Shown here: positions 36,400-42,871 of the stretch, one piece after another
Layout: each line of letters begins with the position of its first letter
Position numbering within the stretch: position 1 is the stretch's first letter
Origin: an uncultured Candidatus Saccharibacteria bacterium
GTDB lineage: Bacteria > Patescibacteriota > Minisyncoccia > Minisyncoccales > CAYTKG01
Length of the DNA: 54,408 bases
NCBI GenBank assembly: GCA_964615425.1
Contig: CAZTOB010000002.1
Location: 1-54,408, forward strand
Direction of reading: 5' to 3'
Notes under the pieces: model-generated
Seen by the model: the letters and a program-made list of their open reading frames with translations, nothing else
The model's database searches: none
What the model was told of the DNA's origin: nothing
Made by a program: the position numbers and the translations under genes

Positions 36400-36675
36400 T
36401 CACTCTTTGTAGACTTTGTAGCCGTCCCGCACCTTTTCTTCCACCTTCAGCCCTACCTCGTCCCCCTTGCCCGCTTTGGCAATTTTTTCATGATCCACCT
36501 CCATTGAAGAAACATCCTGTTCAAAATCAGTGTCCATACCTCCGACTATTCTTATCCGGTCTCCCTCTTTTAAGGTGCCGGAAAGTTTCAAAACGGCCAC
36601 CTTCAAGTCACCGAAGTAGTGAATTATTTCTCCCACCTCCTTCCATTCGGATAGTTTTTTTTCTTCTTTTGCCAT
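36400..36675 (-). CDS. Small beta-barrel protein resembling translation-factor domain II (EF-Tu/IF2 D2-like)
   Basis: 91 aa. The VAVLKLSGTLKEGDRIRIVG...GDEVGLKV pattern is typical of the translation-protein beta-barrel. Confidence 0.45.
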   Translation of the reverse strand: MAKEEKKLSEWKEVGEIIHYFGDLKVAVLKLSGTLKEGDRIRIVGGMDTDFEQDVSSMEVDHEKIAKAGKGDEVGLKVEEKVRDGYKVYKE

Positions 36676-36696: not shown

Positions 36697-37314
36697 TCAA
36701 ATCTTACGACCTTTAAAATACTTTTGAGCTTCGAAATAAGTTTCCATCTTTTTTTTGTGATCTTCCACCTTGTCACAAACCCGCTCCACCAAGGCCTTCG
36801 GATCGCTGTCATAAACAATGTGGCCCGGCCCTTTGTTGGCTCTTTTGACAATTTCTTTTATCATATCCGCCGTTCCCCCCGTACCTTCCAGAACCCCCAC
36901 CAATCTATCATCTTCGAAACAAACAGTAAATTCATTCAAGGTTCCCATACGACCGCAAATAAAGATAACGGCGTCAGCCATTCTCATTAACCATACGTTG
37001 CGGGCGGAAAATCCGTAGCCGGTATAAAAAATTAGATCAAAAATATCAGTGGGCATCTTAAACTGATTGTAGTGGTCTTTTTCTGAAATAGCGGGCGAGA
37101 CCCCGATGGAAAGACCTCCTTTTTCCTTGGCTCCCCGAACCGCTTCATAGGGCATTCCCCAACAGGCGCCGGTTAAAACCGCACCGTCGTGGGAGACGAT
37201 TTGCCTTCCTATTTCCCTTGCTTTTTCAGTCGCCCCCGAAAGGCAATGATCGGTCGTTTCAGCCCCGGAGACGGCAATTTTGTACTTAAAATTAAAATCT
37301 TTCAGACTCTGCAT
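36697..37314 (-). CDS. LOG/SLOG-superfamily Rossmann protein (TIGR00725-like)
   Basis: 205 aa with IAVSGAE...GAVLTGACWGMPYEAVRGAKEKGGLSIGVSP...ADAVIFICGRMGTLNEF. Confidence 0.6.
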   Translation of the reverse strand: MQSLKDFNFKYKIAVSGAETTDHCLSGATEKAREIGRQIVSHDGAVLTGACWGMPYEAVRGAKEKGGLSIGVSPAISEKDHYNQFKMPTDIFDLIFYTGYGFSARNVWLMRMADAVIFICGRMGTLNEFTVCFEDDRLVGVLEGTGGTADMIKEIVKRANKGPGHIVYDSDPKALVERVCDKVEDHKKKMETYFEAQKYFKGRKI

Positions 37315-37377
37315 AAGGTAAATAATTTAAAAACTCATATTACCTTATTATATTCCAAATATGCTTTTTATCCAAAT

Positions 37378-37408
37378 AAAAAGCTCCCCACCTGGACAGG
37401 TGGGGAGC
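37378..37408 (-). terminator. Intrinsic terminator
   Basis: On the minus strand GCUCCCCACC-UGUCCA-GGUGGGGAGC forms a 10-bp stem followed by UUUUU. Confidence 0.85.
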
Positions 37409-37548
37409 AAGGGGTTTTGGCCTGCTCAAAAGACAAGTTCCGGAAACCCGCGGGGGACAATCCCACTGGGCTATGCACATCTTAATCTTTTAAGCAGGGG
37501 GTTGTCCTTGGGGAACTAGAAGCTCTTGCTCCCGTCCCCTCACCCCTC
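37378..37548 (-). ncRNA. Candidate structured RNA, about 171 nt: riboswitch-like leader or sRNA of unknown class
   Basis: It has its own TTGACA-16-TAAAAT promoter. Structural elements include a 13-bp helix (37486-37498 / 37421-37433), a possible pseudoknot (37499-37507 / 37455-37464), and a 5' segment that can pair with the left arm of the terminator. A strong terminator is followed by the LOG-like gene 64 nt downstream. Confidence 0.6.
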
Positions 37549-37554
37549 AAAATT

Positions 37555-37582
37555 ATTTTACTCTTTAAAAGCGGATTGTCAA
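37555..37582 (-). promoter_or_regulatory. Sigma70-type promoter directly after tRNA-Arg
   Basis: On the minus strand TTGACA lies at 37582-37577, followed by a 16-nt spacer and TAAAAT at 37560-37555. Confidence 0.55.
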
Positions 37583-37583
37583 G

Positions 37584-37655
37584 TGCTCCCAGAAGGATTC
37601 GAACCTTCAGCTCGGCCTCCGGAGGGCCGCGCTTTATCCATTAAGCGATGGGAGC
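37584..37655 (-). tRNA. tRNA-Arg(CCG)
   Basis: The fold was done by hand. The acceptor stem is GCUCCCA/UGGGAGC, the D-stem is GCUU/AAGC, the anticodon stem is CGGCC/GGCCG with loop CUCCGGA, and the T-arm is GAAGG-UUCGAAU-CCUUC with discriminator A. No CCA is encoded. Confidence 0.9.
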
Positions 37656-38351
37656 TTTTGAAACAACATAAATGTTTCTTTTAGAGGTCAAAAATCCGCT
37701 TTCTTCAACTATCAATCCGGCCTCTTTCGTTAATCCTACCAACTCTCTTTTGGTAAAACAATGAAAAAACCTTTGGGCAATTATTTCACTTTTTTCGTTT
37801 TTCCAGGGGTAATGTAAGTCCCTCCAGCCCAAATCACCACCTATAATTTTTTCTTTCCAGGAAGCAAAATGATTTTTTAAAAACCTCATCCTCCATAAAT
37901 TCCAAACAACAACAATTAGAACCCCGCCTTCTTTTAAGACCCGGGAGGCTTCTTGGAGAAACAAAAGACGTTGACTGCGGGAAGGGATGTGGTGCAAGAC
38001 TGCAACCGCAAAAACCGCGTCAAACTCATTTTCAGAAAAAGGGAGATCAGCCCCGTCCGCTTTTAAAAATTTTTGGTTTTCAAGTTCAAATTTTTTACTC
38101 CTGCGAGCTAGAGAAATCAGTTTCCGAGAAACATCAACACCGACATACTCCACCTGTTTGTTTTTAAACAAGACCCGCAGACGACCGTTTCCGCACCCGA
38201 CGTCTAAAACCTTGTCTTTAGAACCAATTAAATCTCTAAACTTGAAAAGAGCGGGCCAGACCTTAAAACGGGTCCGGGAAAAATCATCCGCTATTTTATC
38301 ATAGTCTCTTTCCGTTTTTTTCTTTATTGTTTTTGCGGTTTTTTCTTTCAT
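37641..38351 (-). CDS. Class I SAM-dependent methyltransferase, Trm9/ALKBH8-MT-like (putative tRNA cm5U34 methyltransferase)
   Basis: YDKIADDFSRTRFKVWP resembles yeast Trm9 YNEIAPHFSQTRYKPWP. VLDVGCGNGR is SAM motif I, and AVAVLHHIPSRSQR and the later RFFHCFTKRELVGL also fit. The gene is divergent from elp3. Confidence 0.6.
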   Translation of the reverse strand: MKEKTAKTIKKKTERDYDKIADDFSRTRFKVWPALFKFRDLIGSKDKVLDVGCGNGRLRVLFKNKQVEYVGVDVSRKLISLARRSKKFELENQKFLKADGADLPFSENEFDAVFAVAVLHHIPSRSQRLLFLQEASRVLKEGGVLIVVVWNLWRMRFLKNHFASWKEKIIGGDLGWRDLHYPWKNEKSEIIAQRFFHCFTKRELVGLTKEAGLIVEESGFLTSKRNIYVVSKAPIA

Positions 38352-38378: not shown

Positions 38379-39944
38379 ATGAATTTGGAAAAAGAAATCG
38401 TTAAAAATTTAGAAAGAATCAAAGAAAAAGACCGGGATTTGGTAAGAAAGGTGAAAAGAAAAGTTTGCAGGAAATACGGCAAACCCCTTCCTAAAAACAC
38501 GGATCTTCTTAGCACCTACCGCGAAATGGTGGAAAAGAAAGAAATGAAAAGAAATCGTCTTCTCGAATGGCTTCTTATCACCCGCCCCGTCCGTTCACTT
38601 TCCGGAATCGTTAACGTCACCGTTTTAACCAAACCTTTTCTCTGCCCCGGACAATGCATCTTTTGCCCCAATGAACCGGGTTTCCCCAAAAGTTACCTAG
38701 CCGGAGAGCCGGCAGCCGACCGAGCCGAAGGAGTAGATTTTGACCCCTATCTTCAGGTAAATGAAAGATTGAAAAGTCTAAGAGCCCAGGGCCACCCGGT
38801 AGAAAAAATTGAACTTAGAATAGTGGGAGGAACCTGGAGCGCTTACCCGGAAGAATACAAAAAAAACTTTTTAAAAAACTGTTTTGAGGCGGCAAACAAC
38901 TTTCCTGATGTTTTTAAAACTAAAAAAACATTGCCTGAGCTCCAAAAAGAAAACGAAAAAGCAAAATCAAGGATTGTCGGTCTTTCCGTTGAAACACGGC
39001 CTGACCACATCAACAAGAAGGAGATAAGAAGTCTCAGGGAGTCGGGGGTAACCCTTGTGGAGATAGGAGTTCAAACTGTTTTTGACGAGATACACCGTAA
39101 GTGCCAAACCAATCTTTCTGTTAAAAAAATAAGTCGGGCCAACCGTCTTTTAAAAGACGCAGGGTTTAAGGTCTTGTGGCAGGTAATGCCCGGGCTGCCG
39201 GGCTCAAACTTGAAAAAAGACCTTGAGATGTTTGAAATTATTTTTCAAGATCCCCGCTTCAAACCGGACTGGCTGAAAATATATCCTTGTTTGGTTTGTG
39301 AAAACACCAAGCTTTACCAGTTATGGAAAGAAAAAAAATACAAACCCTATTCACAAGAACAACTTATTGAACTTTTGAAAAAAGTGCGTTTAAAACTCCC
39401 CCGCTGGGTCAGGGTAGCCCGCATCTTTAGAGACATCCCAGCGGAAAAGATAAAAGGGGGGTGTACCACTTCCAACCTGAGGGAGCTTCTTGACCAGGAA
39501 CAAAAGTGCGGGTGTATAAGATGCAGAGAGGTTAAAGACCGCTTTGACCCAGAAGAAGAAGTATTCCTGTTCCGAGAAGACTACAAAGCTTCAGGCGGAA
39601 GAGAAATATTTCTATCCTTTGAAAATAAAAAGAGAACAAAACTTTTCTCTCTTCTCCGCCTCCGTCTGCCGGGAGAAGAAATTTTCCCTCTTTTTAAAAA
39701 CTCCGGAATTATAAGAGAGGTCCAAACCTTCGGCCCCCAGATCCCCTTGACCCAAAGGGGGAAAGGAGTCCAGCACAAAGGGTTGGGCCGGAAGCTCATT
39801 AAAAAAGCGGAGGAAATAGCTGAAAACGAATTCAATAAAAAAAAGATGGTAATTATTTCAGGCGTAGGGGCAAAAGAGTATTACCGCCAAAAACACAACT
39901 ACCACCTGGAGAAAACTTACATGACCAAAAGACTAAACTCGTGA
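38379..39944 (+). CDS. elp3: Elp3-family radical SAM + GNAT enzyme (tRNA U34 carboxymethyl-forming Elongator subunit 3 homologue)
   Basis: 521 aa. It has a radical-SAM cluster region (CPGQCIFCPNE), the elongated Elp3 architecture and a C-terminal GNAT acetyl-CoA motif (VQHKGLGRKLIKKAEEIA). Confidence 0.85.
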   Translation: MNLEKEIVKNLERIKEKDRDLVRKVKRKVCRKYGKPLPKNTDLLSTYREMVEKKEMKRNRLLEWLLITRPVRSLSGIVNVTVLTKPFLCPGQCIFCPNEPGFPKSYLAGEPAADRAEGVDFDPYLQVNERLKSLRAQGHPVEKIELRIVGGTWSAYPEEYKKNFLKNCFEAANNFPDVFKTKKTLPELQKENEKAKSRIVGLSVETRPDHINKKEIRSLRESGVTLVEIGVQTVFDEIHRKCQTNLSVKKISRANRLLKDAGFKVLWQVMPGLPGSNLKKDLEMFEIIFQDPRFKPDWLKIYPCLVCENTKLYQLWKEKKYKPYSQEQLIELLKKVRLKLPRWVRVARIFRDIPAEKIKGGCTTSNLRELLDQEQKCGCIRCREVKDRFDPEEEVFLFREDYKASGGREIFLSFENKKRTKLFSLLRLRLPGEEIFPLFKNSGIIREVQTFGPQIPLTQRGKGVQHKGLGRKLIKKAEEIAENEFNKKKMVIISGVGAKEYYRQKHNYHLEKTYMTKRLNS

Positions 39945-40877
39945 AACGCGGGTAAAGCCGGAGCAGGGTACCACCTTAACACCCCCTTTTTCCAACTGGT
40001 CTGCAAATAAATTAACACCCAGCGAGTCAGAAGACATGTGCCCGGCAATTACAACATTTAAAAGGGCCTTCTTGGCTTCTTCATAGTGCTCTTTGCCGAT
40101 GTGCATCCCCACCACCGTTCCTATGCCCGCCTGAGCCATTTTTTCATAAATTTTGGGAGAGCCCTCGGTTCCCCCCGTTATCTCCGTAAGAGCAATCTTT
40201 CCGCACCTTCTTTCCGGACTGCCGACAAACGCCTTCGGGCCGGCCCCTATCTCTTTGGCTTTTTCGTACTCAGGGATATTTTTCAAAAGTTCAAGAAGGT
40301 CCTTTAGTCTTTTTGGCTTTTCTTTTTCAACTTTCTTTTTCAAAAAATTGGCCGCCAAGTTGTCACAAACCGTATGAAGACACATCAAGTTGGTGCCTAA
40401 AATATTTGCCGCATCCACCGTGCGCTGATGGTTGGCGGCGTTGACTCCTCTTGCCACCTCGCTCATTCTTTCTTTAATCAAGGCCTCCCCGATATTGATG
40501 GGAACCCCGTAACTAGCTAAAACATCAGCCTGAAGGCTCATCACTTCGGAAAGACGGGCCAAACCTTTTCCCAAAGGATGATGAGATATAACAAGGTCAA
40601 TGTCTCCAAGCTTGTCCGCCATCAAAAGCTCCCCCGGCCCTATATCTATCCCCACCATGACCTTTTTTATCTCCCCATCCCGGCTGATATGTAAAACCCG
40701 GGAGTCAAAATAAGGATTATGAAGATCACTCTTGTCATATTCCTTTTTCTTTTTGGAAGAAAGCTTGTCATATTTTTCTTTTCTTCTTTTAAGAACTTCT
40801 TTTACACCTTCTTTTCCTCGAAAGTCCGCTCTCATCCCCATTTTAACCGCCAGTTTGTGTATTTCCTTAGTTTTCAT
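39933..40877 (-). CDS. NIF3-family (dinuclear metal centre) protein
   Basis: DLVISHHPL and the C-terminal AGHMSSD motif are present. I prefer the ATG at 40875-40877 because the longer TTG start at 40955 lies inside the U-tract of a terminator-like hairpin. Confidence 0.6.
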   Translation of the reverse strand: MKTKEIHKLAVKMGMRADFRGKEGVKEVLKRRKEKYDKLSSKKKKEYDKSDLHNPYFDSRVLHISRDGEIKKVMVGIDIGPGELLMADKLGDIDLVISHHPLGKGLARLSEVMSLQADVLASYGVPINIGEALIKERMSEVARGVNAANHQRTVDAANILGTNLMCLHTVCDNLAANFLKKKVEKEKPKRLKDLLELLKNIPEYEKAKEIGAGPKAFVGSPERRCGKIALTEITGGTEGSPKIYEKMAQAGIGTVVGMHIGKEHYEEAKKALLNVVIAGHMSSDSLGVNLFADQLEKGGVKVVPCSGFTRVSRV

Positions 40878-40953
40878 CTTTTTGTTTGTTATCCCTGTAA
40901 TTTTTAAACCTCGAGTAAAGCTCTTCTTCTTGTTTCTCTCTTTCTTTTTTGTC

Positions 40954-40977
40954 AAAAACCTCCCGCCTTATGCGGGC
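40954..40977 (-). terminator. Possible intrinsic terminator after rtcB
   Basis: On the minus strand CCCGC-AUAAG-GCGGG is followed by AGGUUUUUG. The stem is short, at 5 GC pairs. Confidence 0.4.
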
Positions 40978-41024: not shown

Positions 41025-42467
41025 TTATTCTCCCTTGATTACCGCCAAAGGACGCACCTTAGCCACCTTACGGGCTAAGCCTGCCCCCTCCACCACCTCA
41101 ACCACATTGTTTACATCTTTATAAGCCAGGGGTGCTTCTTCAGCCACTCCGCGCATCGAATAACACCTTACCAAAACTCCCTTTCTATCCAAATCGTCCA
41201 CCAACTTGCCCCCGGAAACCCTTCTTTTAGCCTCGGTCCTGGACATTGTTCTCCCCGCACCGTGGCAGACGCTGTAAAAAGCATCTCCTCCAGAAGAACT
41301 CCCGGCTAAAATATACGAGGATGTTCCCATGGAACCCGGGACAAGAACCGGCTGACCTGCCTCAGCGTATCTTTGAGGCAGGTCCTCCCACCCAGGAGGA
41401 AAAGCTCTTGTGGCTCCTTTTCTGTGAACACAGACCTTCTTTAAAGAACCTCCCACCTTATGACGCTCCACCTTGGCGATATTGTGAGCCACGTCATAAA
41501 CCAAATTTAAAGAAACTTTCTTGCCGAAAACTTGAGCCCAGGCCCTGCGTACATAGTGAGTAATGGACTGCCTGTTGGCCCAAGCATAATTGGAAGCAGC
41601 GCTTAAAGCTTTTAAGAATCTTTGCCCCTCGCTGGATTTAAACGGCATACAAGCCAACTCTCTGTCGGGAAGGGTTATATTATACTTGTTCATAGCTTGT
41701 CGAGCCACCTTCAAGTAGTCGTTGCAGTTTTGATGTCCGAGGCCTCGTGAGCCTGTATGAATCATAACTGTCACCATCCCCTCCTCAAGCCCAAAAATGT
41801 CAGCCGTTTTCTTATCAAAGATCTTTTCCACAACTTGAATTTCTAAAAAGTGGTTGCCACTCCCCAGGGTTCCTATCTGATCATTGCCTCTCTTTTTTGC
41901 CTTGTCGCTTACGAAGCTTGCATCGGCAATTTCCAACCTTCCGTTCGATTCACAGTTTTCAACATCTCTTTTCTCCCCGTAACCCTGGCTTACAAGGTAG
42001 GGAACACCGCCTTCCAAAACCTTGTTCATTTGCGAACGGCTCAAAGAACTCTTTCTTCCCTGGCCAAGCCCGGAGGGCACATTTTCCTGCATTGAATCAG
42101 CCAGCTTTTTTATATAAGGCTTGATTTCTTCCTCATTAAAATCACTTGTTAAAAGTCGGACTCCGCAGTTCTCATCATAGCCGATCGCGCCAGGGGAGAT
42201 GACACCCTTTTCAAGATCCATTGCCGCTACCCCGCCGATGGGAAAACCATATCCCTGGTGCATATCGGGCATAGCCAAAGCATACTTAACAATCCCGGGC
42301 AAAGTGGTCGCATTGACCAATTGGTCCAAAGATTTATCTTCAAAGGCCATGTCAAACATCTTATCGGAAGAGTAAAAACGAGCCGGAACCCGCATGTCTT
42401 CACGAAAAGACTTGGGAATCTCCCAGATGTAATCATTTATCCTTTTTGTATCTTCTTTTTTGATCAT
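41025..42467 (-). CDS. rtcB: RtcB RNA 3'-phosphate/2',3'-cyclic phosphate ligase
   Basis: 480 aa with DMHQGYGFPIGG, GSGNHF, HTGSRGLGHQ and the C-terminal region HGAGR. Confidence 0.93.
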   Translation of the reverse strand: MIKKEDTKRINDYIWEIPKSFREDMRVPARFYSSDKMFDMAFEDKSLDQLVNATTLPGIVKYALAMPDMHQGYGFPIGGVAAMDLEKGVISPGAIGYDENCGVRLLTSDFNEEEIKPYIKKLADSMQENVPSGLGQGRKSSLSRSQMNKVLEGGVPYLVSQGYGEKRDVENCESNGRLEIADASFVSDKAKKRGNDQIGTLGSGNHFLEIQVVEKIFDKKTADIFGLEEGMVTVMIHTGSRGLGHQNCNDYLKVARQAMNKYNITLPDRELACMPFKSSEGQRFLKALSAASNYAWANRQSITHYVRRAWAQVFGKKVSLNLVYDVAHNIAKVERHKVGGSLKKVCVHRKGATRAFPPGWEDLPQRYAEAGQPVLVPGSMGTSSYILAGSSSGGDAFYSVCHGAGRTMSRTEAKRRVSGGKLVDDLDRKGVLVRCYSMRGVAEEAPLAYKDVNNVVEVVEGAGLARKVAKVRPLAVIKGE

Positions 42468-42871
42468 ATATCAAACAAAATCTTAGCCCTCCATCTTTTT
42501 CCACGTTTTTCAAGTTCCAAGTCATGAAAGGTGGCCGCTTTAACTTGAAGACCGAACCTTCTCACCTTCCATCCATATATCTTTCCCACCAGCTCGTTGT
42601 CTTCAAACTTGGAGAAATGAACGTGGGTGTAAACCTCGCGTTTAACCTCGCTTAAATAATTAACTTCATTTAAAAAATCCACCAAAAGCGCTTCCGCATC
42701 TTCAGAAAGGATCCTTATCTTCTCCTCAGCTTTTTCATCTTTCTTTTCCGGCCGCAGACCTTCTGCTAAAGCCTGCATCGCATTTTCAAAGAGAAGCTCC
42801 TTGTTTTTTCCGAAGACTTCAACCTCAAAATCAGCGGGATGCTCTAGGATTTTGTAAGGTTTTTGTGTCAT
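42464..42871 (-). CDS. Archease (RtcB activator)
   Basis: 135 aa. The N-terminal YKILEHPADFEVEVFG signature is present, and the stop overlaps the rtcB start (ATGA). Confidence 0.85.
   Translation of the reverse strand: MTQKPYKILEHPADFEVEVFGKNKELLFENAMQALAEGLRPEKKDEKAEEKIRILSEDAEALLVDFLNEVNYLSEVKREVYTHVHFSKFEDNELVGKIYGWKVRRFGLQVKAATFHDLELEKRGKRWRAKILFDI

What the first reader, a model, noticed from the sequence alone, without database searches (positions are those of the whole stretch)
37378..37548. About 171-nt structured RNA with own promoter, possible pseudoknot and antiterminator/terminator competition
Seen in sequence on the minus strand:
- A TTGACA-16-TAAAAT promoter starts 1 nt after tRNA-Arg.
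- The transcript begins around GAGGGGUGAGGGGACGGGAGCAAG.
- A perfect 13-bp helix forms between CCUGCUUAAAAGA (37498-37486) and UCUUUUGAGCAGG (37433-37421), extended by UAAG/CUUG.
- GGACAACCC (37507-37499), just 5' of that helix, can pair with GGGAUUGUCC (37464-37455) in its apical loop. This gives an H-type pseudoknot topology.
- The transcript ends in a 10-bp terminator (GCUCCCCACC/GGUGGGGAGC plus U5).

The 5' segment GGUG[AGGGGAC]GGGAGCAAG (37544-37525) is complementary to CUUGCUCCCCACC (37411-37399). That target contains the whole left arm of the terminator, so the closing helix and the terminator are mutually exclusive.

This is the architecture of a transcriptional ON riboswitch or attenuator. 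A LOG/TIGR00725-like gene starts 64 nt downstream and heads a long co-directional gene array. I could not match the RNA to SRP, 6S, tmRNA, RNase P, TPP, ykkC, ZTP, c-di-GMP or Mn riboswitch consensus sequences from memory.
Basis: partly seen in the sequence, partly recalled or inferred. Interest (0 to 1): 0.65.

Follow-up and report, generated by a model that had tools for sequence, protein, structure and literature searches.

The report
New dimer-prone structured RNA of Patescibacteria
The 171-nt element is a real RNA gene with its own promoter and terminator, belongs to an uncatalogued pseudoknotted RNA family widespread in Patescibacteria, probably pairs with a second copy of itself, and is not a riboswitch for the LOG-like gene.

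Summary
The sequence features exist at the stated coordinates: promoter, long helix, pseudoknot and terminator. The RNA matches none of 4,227 Rfam families. I found 61 distinct homologs, all in Patescibacteria (CPR) genomes or metagenomes.

On an unfitted alignment of 52 of them, covariation supports P1, P2, a long arm P4-P5 and pseudoknot P3. In P3 the 7-nt apical loop A-UUGUCC pairs with GGACAA.

The riboswitch reading fails on two counts. All 52 homologs checked end in a terminator, followed in most by a separate promoter for the next gene. The proposed antiterminator pairing is no better than chance and is not conserved.

The conserved downstream partner is a 91-aa EF-Tu-domain-2-like protein gene, not LOG. 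LOG is an insertion between the two in some lineages.

Each strand of the internal loop carries a palindrome that is conserved as a palindrome while its sequence varies. Even the adjacent central bases covary as complements. This suggests a symmetric RNA homodimer.

Function is unknown. My best guess is a trans-acting dimeric RNA or RNP linked to translation.

The parts
37577..37582 (-). -35 box TTGACA of the RNA gene
   Evidence: TTGACA-N15-18-TAnnnT is correctly placed in 49 of 52 homologs.
37555..37560 (-). -10 box TAAAAT of the RNA gene
   Evidence: GAGGG starts 6 nt downstream in all homologs.
37378..37548 (-). Whole RNA, from the inferred start to the end of the U-tract. The 140-nt core is 37409-37548.
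   Evidence: Covariance-model (CM) hit at 37409-37548, 68.5 bits, the only copy in the window. MFE z = -6.5.
37542..37548 (-). P1 5' strand, GAGGGGU
   Evidence: Pairs with 37409-37415. P1 is 97% paired, with A-U/G-C swaps, across homologs.
37510..37539 (-). P2 hairpin. The base pairs are GGGGA/UCCCC and the tip is variable.
   Evidence: All five base pairs show changes on both sides. P2 is 86-89% paired in the 52-61 sequence alignments.
37502..37507 (-). P3 5' strand (pseudoknot), GGACAA, preceded by the conserved AA
   Evidence: Pairs with 37455-37460. It is 91.5-92.5% paired. Variants include GGGCAG/UUGCCC, AGGCAA/UUGCCU, AGACAA/UUGUCU, GAACAA/UUGUUC and GGUC/GACC.
37481..37498 (-). P4 5' strand, CCUGCUUAAAAGAUUAAG
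   Evidence: Pairs with 37421-37437. Of 13 modelled pairs, 12-13 show changes on both sides.
37473..37480 (-). X palindrome, AUGUGCAU. It is self-complementary with two central G.U pairs.
   Evidence: The palindrome keeps its position while its sequence varies. It is 82.7% complementary, including the adjacent central columns. 27 of 52 sequences have a Watson-Crick palindrome of 8 nt or more, against a null of 6.8%.
37462..37472 (-). P5 5' strand
   Evidence: Pairs with 37445-37454. All nine modelled pairs covary.
37455..37461 (-). Apical 7-nt loop A-UUGUCC of P5, which is the P3 3' strand
37445..37454 (-). P5 3' strand
37438..37445 (-). Y palindrome, UUCCGGAA
   Evidence: 25 of 52 sequences have a Watson-Crick palindrome of 8 nt or more here, against a null of 9.5%. 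Variants include CUCGAG, CCUAGG, CCCGGG, CUUUAAAG, GGAAUUCC and UCUUCGAAGA.
37421..37437 (-). P4 3' strand
37409..37415 (-). P1 3' strand, ACCCCUU
37378..37408 (-). Intrinsic terminator: 11-bp stem, 4-nt loop and U5
   Evidence: A terminator directly follows P1 in all 52 homologs checked, and the stems vary freely in sequence.
37347..37374 (-). Separate promoter of the downstream LOG-like gene, TGGATA-16-TATAAT
   Evidence: TATAAT is conserved across the LOG-linked homologs. L004 has TTGACA-17-TATAAT.
36697..37314 (-). LOG-like / SLOG cluster-4 (TIGR00725-like) gene. It is a neighbour, not a regulated target.
   Evidence: Pfam PF18306, 1.3e-30. It is absent between the RNA and the 91-aa gene in 32 loci.
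36400..36675 (-). 91-aa EF-Tu-domain-2-like beta-barrel protein gene, the conserved genomic partner of the RNA
   Evidence: Pfam GTP_EFTU_D2, 33.5 bits, above the cutoff. PDB profile hits to eIF5B domain IV and EF-1alpha/EF-Tu domain 2. The RNA lies upstream in 52 of 80 loci.
36707..36714 (-). AAAGGTCG motif, 31 nt upstream of the start of the 91-aa gene and here inside the 3' end of LOG
   Evidence: The same 8-mer lies 20-60 nt upstream of the gene in nearly all loci, including loci without the RNA.
37583..37655 (-). tRNA-Arg(CCG), directly upstream
   Evidence: A tRNA-Arg (CCG or CCU) recurs immediately upstream of the RNA in many relatives.

Best explanation
The element is a stand-alone, probably abundant, trans-acting structured non-coding RNA gene. 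It belongs to a previously uncatalogued family that is widespread in Patescibacteria (the Parcubacteria group and relatives).

Transcription (inferred from sequence only): it starts about 6 nt after a near-consensus sigma-70-type promoter and stops at an intrinsic terminator.

Fold of the ~140-nt core (shown by covariation):
- P1 is a closing helix.
- P2 is a hairpin of variable length.
- P4-P5 form a long bent arm.
- The 7-nt apical loop (A-UUGUCC) of P5 folds back and pairs with GGACAA at the foot of the arm. This is pseudoknot P3.
- P3 closes a compact two-stack fold in which the segment lengths are conserved.

Dimerisation (inferred): between P4 and P5, each strand of the internal loop carries a self-complementary tract. 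Its palindromy is conserved while its sequence drifts. I infer that two copies pair through these tracts to form a symmetric homodimer.

Partner (weakest step, inferred from gene linkage): the RNA works together with the product of its conserved downstream neighbour. That product is a 91-aa beta-barrel protein of the EF-Tu domain 2 / IF2-eIF5B C-terminal type. The likely setting is a translation- or tRNA-related process.

It is not a riboswitch or attenuator of the LOG-like gene.
For: Not a known family:
- No Rfam family matches in the window or in 10 divergent loci.
- ARAGORN finds no tmRNA.

Structure:
- 61 distinct homologs were found.
- On the unfitted MAFFT alignment of 52 sequences, 83% of cells are paired, against 70.4 +/- 0.6 for shuffles and 35-59% for slid controls. 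32 of 40 pairs change on both sides.
- The pseudoknot was left out of the covariance model. It is still 92.5% paired, with compensatory changes at three positions.
- The helix-strand alignment is 97.7% paired.

Independent transcription unit:
- 49 of 52 homologs have TTGACA-N15-18-TAnnnT in place, and 52 of 52 have a terminator right after P1.
- A second promoter precedes the next gene.
- The antiterminator pairing is not better than chance.

Dimer:
- The X palindrome is 82.7% complementary, against 62.1 +/- 2.0 for shuffles.
- This includes the adjacent columns 125/126 (UA 27, CG 9, GC 6, UG 5, AU 3). Adjacent bases cannot pair within one strand.
- G.U mismatches outnumber A.C by 28 to 14.
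- Watson-Crick palindromes of 8 nt or more occur in 27 of 52 (X) and 25 of 52 (Y) sequences. The null rates are 6.8% and 9.5%.
- Mean self-duplex energies are -11.6 and -11.0 kcal/mol, against -5.8 and -7.2 for shuffled tracts.

Linkage:
- The RNA lies upstream, on the same strand, in 52 of 80 loci fetched through the 91-aa protein. In 32 of them it is directly adjacent.
- Every true hit from the context-independent pattern scans lies in this same neighbourhood.
Against: - There are no expression data. The start site, the 3' end and the abundance are inferred from sequence alone.
- Function is unknown.
- The homodimer is inferred from palindrome covariation only. The Y palindrome could not be tested column by column, because the gaps are placed inconsistently. 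Small alternative hairpins around both tracts are not excluded.
- 28 of 80 protein loci have no RNA within 2.5 kb. The linkage could therefore be conserved gene order rather than shared function.
- Most homologs were found by looking next to the LOG or 91-aa genes, which is an ascertainment bias. The context-free scans used strict patterns.
- I could not check whether these genomes carry ordinary 6S, SRP or RNase P RNAs elsewhere.
Confidence: 0.75

Rival explanations
1. Transcriptional ON riboswitch or attenuator. A ligand-stabilised 5'/3' closing helix competes with the terminator and allows read-through into the LOG-like gene and the array behind it.
For: - The fold is conserved and pseudoknotted, like an aptamer.
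- The terminator abuts the P1 3' strand with a 0-3 nt gap.
- The downstream genes always run in the same direction.
- In the window, the 5' G-rich segment can pair with the terminator's left arm.
Against: - A separate promoter lies between the terminator and the next gene, including perfect TGnTATAAT and TTGACA-17-TATAAT examples.
- The antiterminator pairing equals that of shuffled arms (z from -2.2 to +1.3). It is impossible in L080 and L090, whose terminator arms are not C-rich.
- The terminator (-16 to -27 kcal/mol) is always more stable than the alternative pairing.
- The downstream gene differs between lineages: LOG in some, the 91-aa gene in others.
Confidence: 0.07
2. Protein-titrating or autoregulatory RNA of the 91-aa protein operon. 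The RNA is a monomeric decoy that binds the EF-Tu-domain-2-like protein. The protein also recognises the AAAGGUCG tract of its own mRNA leader, giving feedback control. The palindromes would be structural details rather than dimer contacts.
For: - The RNA is tightly linked to the 91-aa gene.
- Single-stranded AAGGAC in the RNA resembles the conserved AAAGGUCG in the leader.
- The protein belongs to a fold class that binds tRNA 3' ends.
Against: - The leader motif is also present in loci that lack the RNA.
- It does not covary with P3. In L115, P3 becomes GGUC/GACC while the leader stays AAAGGUC.
- There are no binding data.
- Covariation of the adjacent central bases in the palindrome is not explained by a monomer.
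Confidence: 0.12
3. A highly divergent form of a housekeeping RNA (6S, 4.5S/SRP, RNase P or tmRNA) that the standard models miss in reduced CPR genomes.
For: - It has a strong constitutive promoter, sits next to a tRNA gene and is broadly distributed in the phylum.
- P4, the large internal loop and P5 loosely recall the closing stem, bubble and terminal stem of 6S RNA.
Against: - No Rfam match even at E <= 10, and ARAGORN is negative.
- By my reading of the sequences, there is no SRP domain IV motif (GNAR loop with AGCA) and no RNase P P4 consensus.
- The pseudoknot from the apical loop to the foot of the arm, together with the P1/P2 junction, does not fit a 6S rod.
- The core is too short (~140 nt) for RNase P or tmRNA.
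Confidence: 0.04

Closest known systems
Orphan structured bacterial ncRNAs that self-assemble: OLE, ROOL and GOLLD (Kretsch et al., Nature 2025, PMC12286853), and small self-assembling motifs (bioRxiv 10.64898/2026.07.01.735769)
   Same: These are stand-alone, conserved, intricately folded RNAs of unknown or poorly known function. Their quaternary structure is built from RNA-RNA contacts. OLE forms a homodimer. Here, self-association is predicted from two palindromic tracts.
   Different: There is no sequence or structural homology (Rfam negative). This RNA is far smaller, with a ~140-nt core. It occurs in a different phylum. Its dimerisation is only inferred from covariation, not observed.
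Palindromic dimerisation sites such as the HIV-1 DIS kissing loop (GCGCGC / GUGCAC) - from my own knowledge
   Same: A short, zero-spacer self-complementary tract is presented in a loop and flanked by purines. Its sequence can change as long as it stays a palindrome. Some family members carry GUGCAC or GCGCGC-type tracts.
   Different: Here there are two tracts, one on each strand of an internal loop, in a cellular bacterial RNA. The geometry (kissing contact or strand exchange) is unknown.
Riboswitches with H-type pseudoknots and terminator platforms (for example SAM-II/V, preQ1-II and c-di-GMP-II classes)
   Same: A conserved pseudoknotted fold is followed by an intrinsic terminator, upstream of genes that run in the same direction.
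   Different: The terminator/antiterminator alternative is not conserved. A promoter separates the RNA from the next gene. The downstream gene is not constant. No Rfam riboswitch model matches.
6S RNA (ssrS)
   Same: It is a housekeeping-style sRNA of about 170 nt with its own strong promoter. It has long irregular helices flanking a large internal loop.
   Different: It has a pseudoknot and an extra P1/P2 junction. The loop strands are palindromic. There is no match to the Rfam 6S models.

Membership tests
Transcription-terminating riboswitch / attenuator | The element lies in the 5' UTR of the regulated gene, with no promoter between it and the gene | tested here: not met
   A second promoter follows the terminator in the window and in relatives, including TGnTATAAT and TTGACA-17-TATAAT examples. 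A -10-like hexamer is found in 43 of 52 homologs.
Transcription-terminating riboswitch / attenuator | A conserved, mutually exclusive terminator/antiterminator pairing | tested here: not met
   The duplex between the 5' 30 nt and the terminator's left arm is no better than for shuffled arms in 15 homologs (z from -2.2 to +1.3).
Transcription-terminating riboswitch / attenuator | A conserved structured aptamer domain | tested here: met
   Covariation supports P1-P5 and the pseudoknot. This feature is not specific to riboswitches.
Transcription-terminating riboswitch / attenuator | Specific ligand binding that changes the structure | not testable with these tools
   This needs in-line probing or ITC.
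Transcription-terminating riboswitch / attenuator | Consistent functional class of the downstream gene | tested here: not met
   The next gene is LOG-like in about 19 loci and the 91-aa beta-barrel protein gene in 32 loci.
Any Rfam 15 family (4,227 models) | Covariance-model score at or above the gathering threshold | tested here: not met
   Only tRNAs pass, in the window and in 10 divergent loci. The best sub-threshold hit is rnk_pseudo at 26.4 bits against a threshold of 55, and it is driven by the terminator.
6S RNA | An unbranched rod (closing stem, central bubble, terminal stem) with no pseudoknot | tested here: not met
   The RNA has a P1/P2/P4 junction and a covarying pseudoknot from the apical loop to the foot of P4.
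SRP (4.5S) RNA | Domain IV helix with a GNAR tetraloop and conserved symmetric/asymmetric loops (AGCA motif) | tested here: not met
   No Rfam SRP hit at E <= 10. The motif is absent from the aligned family (my reading of the sequences).
tmRNA | A tRNA-like domain plus a tag reading frame | tested here: not met
   ARAGORN finds only two tRNAs in the window.
RNase P RNA | The P4 core with conserved regions CR-I and CR-V; length over 200 nt | tested here: not met
   No Rfam hit. The core is about 140 nt.
Homo-oligomeric RNA (functional analogy only, not a sequence family) | Intermolecular RNA-RNA pairing between identical copies | tested here: inconclusive
   Palindrome covariation, including adjacent central columns, argues for it.

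The most novel reading that the evidence does not exclude
The RNA is an obligate symmetric homodimer held together by two intermolecular palindromic helices. This would be a new, very small natural RNA quaternary architecture specific to Patescibacteria. Most family members also carry a near-perfect Shine-Dalgarno-like tract (GAAGGAGGU). The conserved neighbour is an EF-Tu-D2 / IF2-C2-like protein, and a tRNA-Arg gene often sits next door. Together these leave open that the dimer bridges two ribosomal subunits or two tRNA-protein complexes, acting as an RNA-based translation-silencing or hibernation particle in these reduced bacteria.
Probability: 0.1. Interest if true: 0.9.

Novelty: categorically new. 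Interest (0 to 1): 0.75.

Why it matters
Patescibacteria (CPR) make up a large share of bacterial diversity, yet almost nothing is known about their non-coding RNAs.

This family has three notable properties. It is phylum-wide, apparently strongly expressed, and absent from Rfam. It folds into a compact pseudoknot. It also carries a rare signature of self-pairing: palindromy is conserved while the sequence is free, even for neighbouring bases.

If the dimer is real, it adds a ~140-nt natural example to the recently opened field of RNA-only quaternary structures. It would also give a tractable target for cryo-EM.

The link to a stand-alone translation-factor-like beta-barrel protein points to an unexplored RNP in organisms with pared-down translation machinery.

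It also matters for annotation. 'Terminator plus conserved fold upstream of a gene' should not be read as a riboswitch without checking for an intervening promoter.

Tried and rejected
1. Archaeal origin. ELP3, RtcB and archease nearby suggested a TATA-type promoter. I rejected this because the window encodes RuvA, the Pol III delta subunit, Fpg, TopA and FtsZ/FtsA, and because the sigma-70 boxes are conserved.
2. Strict sequence patterns for homolog discovery. These recovered only the closest clade plus about 25 chance hits per scan. Protein-anchored retrieval was far more productive.
3. LOG as the functional partner. I dropped this once L087 and L090 showed the RNA directly upstream of the 91-aa gene and 32 further loci agreed.
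4. A hidden small ORF. In L141 and L087, AAGGAGGU is followed by AUG. The AUG is not conserved in L164 or L167.
5. Pairing of the mRNA leader AAAGGUCG with the P3 loop. There is no complementarity and no covariation. L115 changes P3 but keeps the leader motif.
6. Extra local hairpins: AGG/CCU around the X palindrome, and GGCU/AGCC or CUCG/CGAG around the Y palindrome. These are seen in subsets and overlap P5 or the palindromes. They remain unresolved.
7. A column-wise test of the Y palindrome. The gaps in A7 are placed inconsistently, so I report only centre-anchored counts.
8. RNAcofold for the dimer. I did not attempt this, because the proposed contacts are pseudoknotted in a concatenated representation.
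9. Literature searches for a prior description. None was found in the held library.

Full report
**1. Observation**

On the minus strand the window reads as follows.
- tRNA-Arg(CCG) lies at 37655-37583.
- A TTGACA-16-TAAAAT promoter lies at 37582-37555.
- GAGGGG starts at 37548.
- A stem-loop-rich 140-nt core follows.
- An 11-bp terminator with U5 lies at 37408-37378.

- CCUGCUUAAAAGA / UCUUUUGAGCAGG has 12 Watson-Crick pairs and one U.G, and extends to about 17 bp.
- GGACAA / UUGUCC is also present.

The 171-nt RNA folds at -87.6 kcal/mol, with z = -6.5 against dinucleotide shuffles.

No Rfam family reaches its threshold, either in the whole window or in a permissive scan of the region. The best sub-threshold hit, rnk_pseudo at 26.4 bits against a threshold of 55, aligns only the terminator.

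**2. Organism and neighbours**

The window is bacterial: RuvA, HolA, Fpg, TopA, FtsZ/FtsA, ComEC and NrdD.

Homologs of the neighbouring proteins carry Patescibacteria names in their source records, such as Pacebacteria, Azambacteria and Portnoybacteria. RNA-bearing genomes are titled Staskawicz-, Nealson-, Parcubacteria or Paceibacterota. These belong to the Patescibacteria/Parcubacteria group. The 'Saccharibacteria' titles of the closest MAGs are probably coarse labels.

Downstream of the RNA lie:
- a LOG-like SLOG cluster-4 gene (36697-37314);
- a 91-aa EF-Tu-domain-2-like gene (36400-36675);
- an unknown ORF, an M16 peptidase, an AI-2E transporter, a TP_methylase, MetRS and LeuRS.

**3. 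Homologs**

- Loci fetched through the LOG protein showed the RNA in five related MAGs. The promoter boxes, the 5' GAGGGgGUGAGG and CCAAGGRCA were invariant.
- Two strict pattern scans added three metagenome copies, all in the same context.
- Contigs carrying LOG homologs of 68-78% identity added six more types with different upstream genes.
- A scan for the promoter plus the 5' motif found two copies (L087, L090) in which LOG is missing. There the RNA directly precedes the 91-aa gene.
- I therefore fetched 80 loci through an alignment of the 91-aa protein. At least 498 such loci exist in GTDB representative genomes.
- nhmmer and a covariance model found the RNA upstream, on the same strand, in 52 of the 80 loci.
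  - 32 are directly adjacent (49-352 nt).
  - About 19 have a LOG-sized gap.
  - One lies at 1.3 kb.
  - 28 have none within 2.5 kb.
- The window holds one copy. In total there are 61 distinct sequences.

**4. Structure**

- On helix strands extracted from 14 diverse members, 97.7% of cells pair. Nine of 19 pairs change on both sides. Slid controls give 51-65%.
- On a plain MAFFT alignment of 52 cores, which is not fitted to any structure, 83% of cells pair. Column shuffles give 70.4 +/- 0.6 and slid controls give 35-59%. 32 of 40 pairs carry compensatory changes.
- Per helix on that alignment: P2 86%, P3 91.5%, P4 80% (12 of 13 pairs covary), P5 78% (9 of 9 covary).
- On the model-based alignment of 61, the pseudoknot is 92.5% paired although it was deliberately left out of the model. 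The GGAC/GUCC core is nearly invariantly paired, with swaps to GGGC/GCCC, AGGC/GCCU, AGAC/GUCU, GAAC/GUUC and GGUC/GACC.
- The 3' strand of P3 is the 7-nt apical loop of P5.
- In the 16 diverse homologs checked, the spacings P3-5' to P3-3' (41-46 nt) and P3-3' to P1-3' (38-43 nt) are nearly constant despite sequence turnover.
- From these spacings I infer that P5+P3 stack and run back alongside P4.
- P2 varies in length. It carries insertions in L140 and L167 and is absent in L110 and L123.

**5. Why it is not a riboswitch**

- All 52 homologs checked have a terminator immediately after P1. 49 have the promoter in register.
- A second promoter lies between the terminator and the next ORF.
  - In the window it is TGGATA-16-TATAAT.
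  - L004 has TTGACA-17-TATAAT.
  - Many others have TGnTATAAT.
- The proposed antiterminator is not conserved. Pairing of the first 30 nt with the terminator's left arm is no better than for shuffled arms.
  - The window gives z = -1.0.
  - L001, which differs by a few bases, gives +0.3.
  - The range over 15 homologs is -2.2 to +1.3.
- Terminator arms that are not C-rich (L080, L090) cannot pair with the 5' end at all.
- Terminator stems drift freely in sequence, as plain terminators do.
- The downstream gene also differs between lineages.

**6. The palindromes**

Between P4 and P5, each strand of the internal loop contains a zero-spacer self-complementary tract.

- On the 5' side (X), examples are AUGUGCAU (window), AUAUAUAU, AUAGCUAU, GGACGUCC, GGAUAUCC, GUAUAUAC, GCAAUUGC, GAGCGCUC, UCUGCGCAGA and UGCGCGCGCGCA.
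- On the 3' side (Y), examples are UUCCGGAA (window), CUCGAG, CCUAGG, CCCGGG, CUUUAAAG, CCUUAAGG, GGAAUUCC and UCUUCGAAGA.
- Perfect Watson-Crick palindromes of 8 nt or more occur in 27 of 52 (X) and 25 of 52 (Y) sequences. Shuffles of the same stretches give 6.8% and 9.5%.
- I treated the four nested X positions as 'pairs' on the 61-sequence alignment. 82.7% of cells are complementary, against 62.1 +/- 2.0 for shuffles. The covariation score is 0.616 against 0.257, and slid controls give 28-66%.
- The innermost pair consists of adjacent columns. It is complementary in 50 of 59 sequences: UA 27, CG 9, GC 6, UG 5, AU 3.
- Adjacent bases cannot pair within one strand. A hairpin therefore does not explain this, whereas an antiparallel duplex between two copies does.
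- G.U mismatches outnumber A.C by 28 to 14, which favours selection at the RNA level on this strand.
- Self-duplex energies are about twice those of shuffled tracts.

I therefore infer a symmetric homodimer with two intermolecular helices. This is an inference only.

**7. Context clues**

- The 91-aa protein passes the Pfam GTP_EFTU_D2 threshold. Its profile finds eIF5B domain IV, EF-1alpha/EF-Tu domain 2 and the U32 C-terminal barrel in the PDB.
- From established knowledge, those barrels hold the aminoacylated 3' end of tRNA.
- About half of the aligned family members (none in the window's own sub-clade) carry GGAGG within a purine-rich tract of consensus GAAGGAGGU, just 5' of the X palindrome. 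This is a near-perfect Shine-Dalgarno sequence. Its last bases may pair with a conserved RRCC on the other strand.
- A tRNA-Arg (CCG or CCU) sits directly upstream in many loci.
- The leader of the 91-aa gene carries an unexplained conserved 8-mer, AAAGGUCG, even where the RNA is absent.

**8. Verdict**

The riboswitch/attenuator interpretation is not supported.

The element is a member of a new family of stand-alone, pseudoknotted RNAs that are probably homodimeric. The family is found across Patescibacteria and is genomically tied to a small translation-factor-like protein.

No description was found in Rfam 15 or in the searchable literature. The nearest analogies are the self-assembling orphan RNAs OLE, ROOL and GOLLD (PMC12286853) and small assembling motifs.

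Function remains to be shown. I commit to a trans-acting dimeric RNA or RNP in translation or tRNA biology as the most likely reading. That last step is the least certain.

Noticed in passing
window 36707-36714 (-); also L096-L171, 20-60 nt upstream of the 91-aa gene: The conserved 8-mer AAAGGUCG lies in the leader of the 91-aa EF-Tu-D2-like gene. That gene has no Shine-Dalgarno sequence next to its AUG. In the window the motif lies inside the 3' end of the LOG ORF. It is also present in loci that lack the RNA. It does not covary with the RNA's P3.
   Followed up: partly
window 37583-37655 (-); L100-L102, L106, L115, L125, L128, L132, L139, L155, L073, L074, L079: A tRNA-Arg gene (anticodon CCG or CCU, never another amino acid) recurs directly upstream of the RNA. 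In some RNA-negative loci it sits directly upstream of the LOG or 91-aa gene instead.
   Followed up: partly
window 36400-36675 (-): This stand-alone 91-aa beta-barrel protein of the EF-Tu domain 2 / eIF5B domain IV type has at least 498 loci in GTDB representative genomes. Nearly all of the 80 listed are titled Patescibacteria-group MAGs (two are titled Woesearchaeota, several just 'bacterium'). Its function is unknown.
   Followed up: partly
L141, L125, L155, L164 and others (about half of the aligned family members); not in the window's sub-clade: A near-perfect Shine-Dalgarno-like tract, GAAGGAGGU, lies just 5' of the X palindrome in an RNA with no conserved ORF. In the window's sub-clade the equivalent purine-rich stretch is base-paired within a longer P4.
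   Followed up: partly
L110 (~1598-1703), L123 (~2283-2392), L140 (2050-2217), L167 (2253-2399): P2 is dispensable or expandable. It is missing in L110 and L123. It carries insertions of about 20 nt (L167) and about 40 nt (L140).
   Followed up: no
L090 ~1075-1190; L140, L100 and L139 between the RNA terminator and the 91-aa gene: Extra long inverted repeats or repeated tracts are inserted in the leader of the 91-aa gene in some genomes. One example is a ~100-nt hairpin in L090. Another is the CACGAAT-type repeats in L140. These may be small mobile or regulatory elements.
   Followed up: no
window 41025-42871 (-), 39933-40955 (-), 38379-39944 (+): An RtcB RNA ligase with archease, a NIF3-like protein and an ELP3-like radical-SAM protein cluster just upstream of the tRNA/RNA locus. 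In L087 and L090 the NIF3-like gene directly precedes the RNA.
   Followed up: no
window 37641-38351 (-): The class I methyltransferase ORF, as listed, overlaps the 5' end of tRNA-Arg by 15 nt. The same methyltransferase-tRNA order recurs in L053, L073, L079 and L080.
   Followed up: no
L001-L006, L092-L171 record titles: Many MAGs that carry this locus are titled 'uncultured Candidatus Saccharibacteria bacterium'. Two are titled 'Woesearchaeota archaeon'. Their gene content and closest named relatives point to the Parcubacteria/Paceibacteria group, so these labels look unreliable.
   Followed up: no
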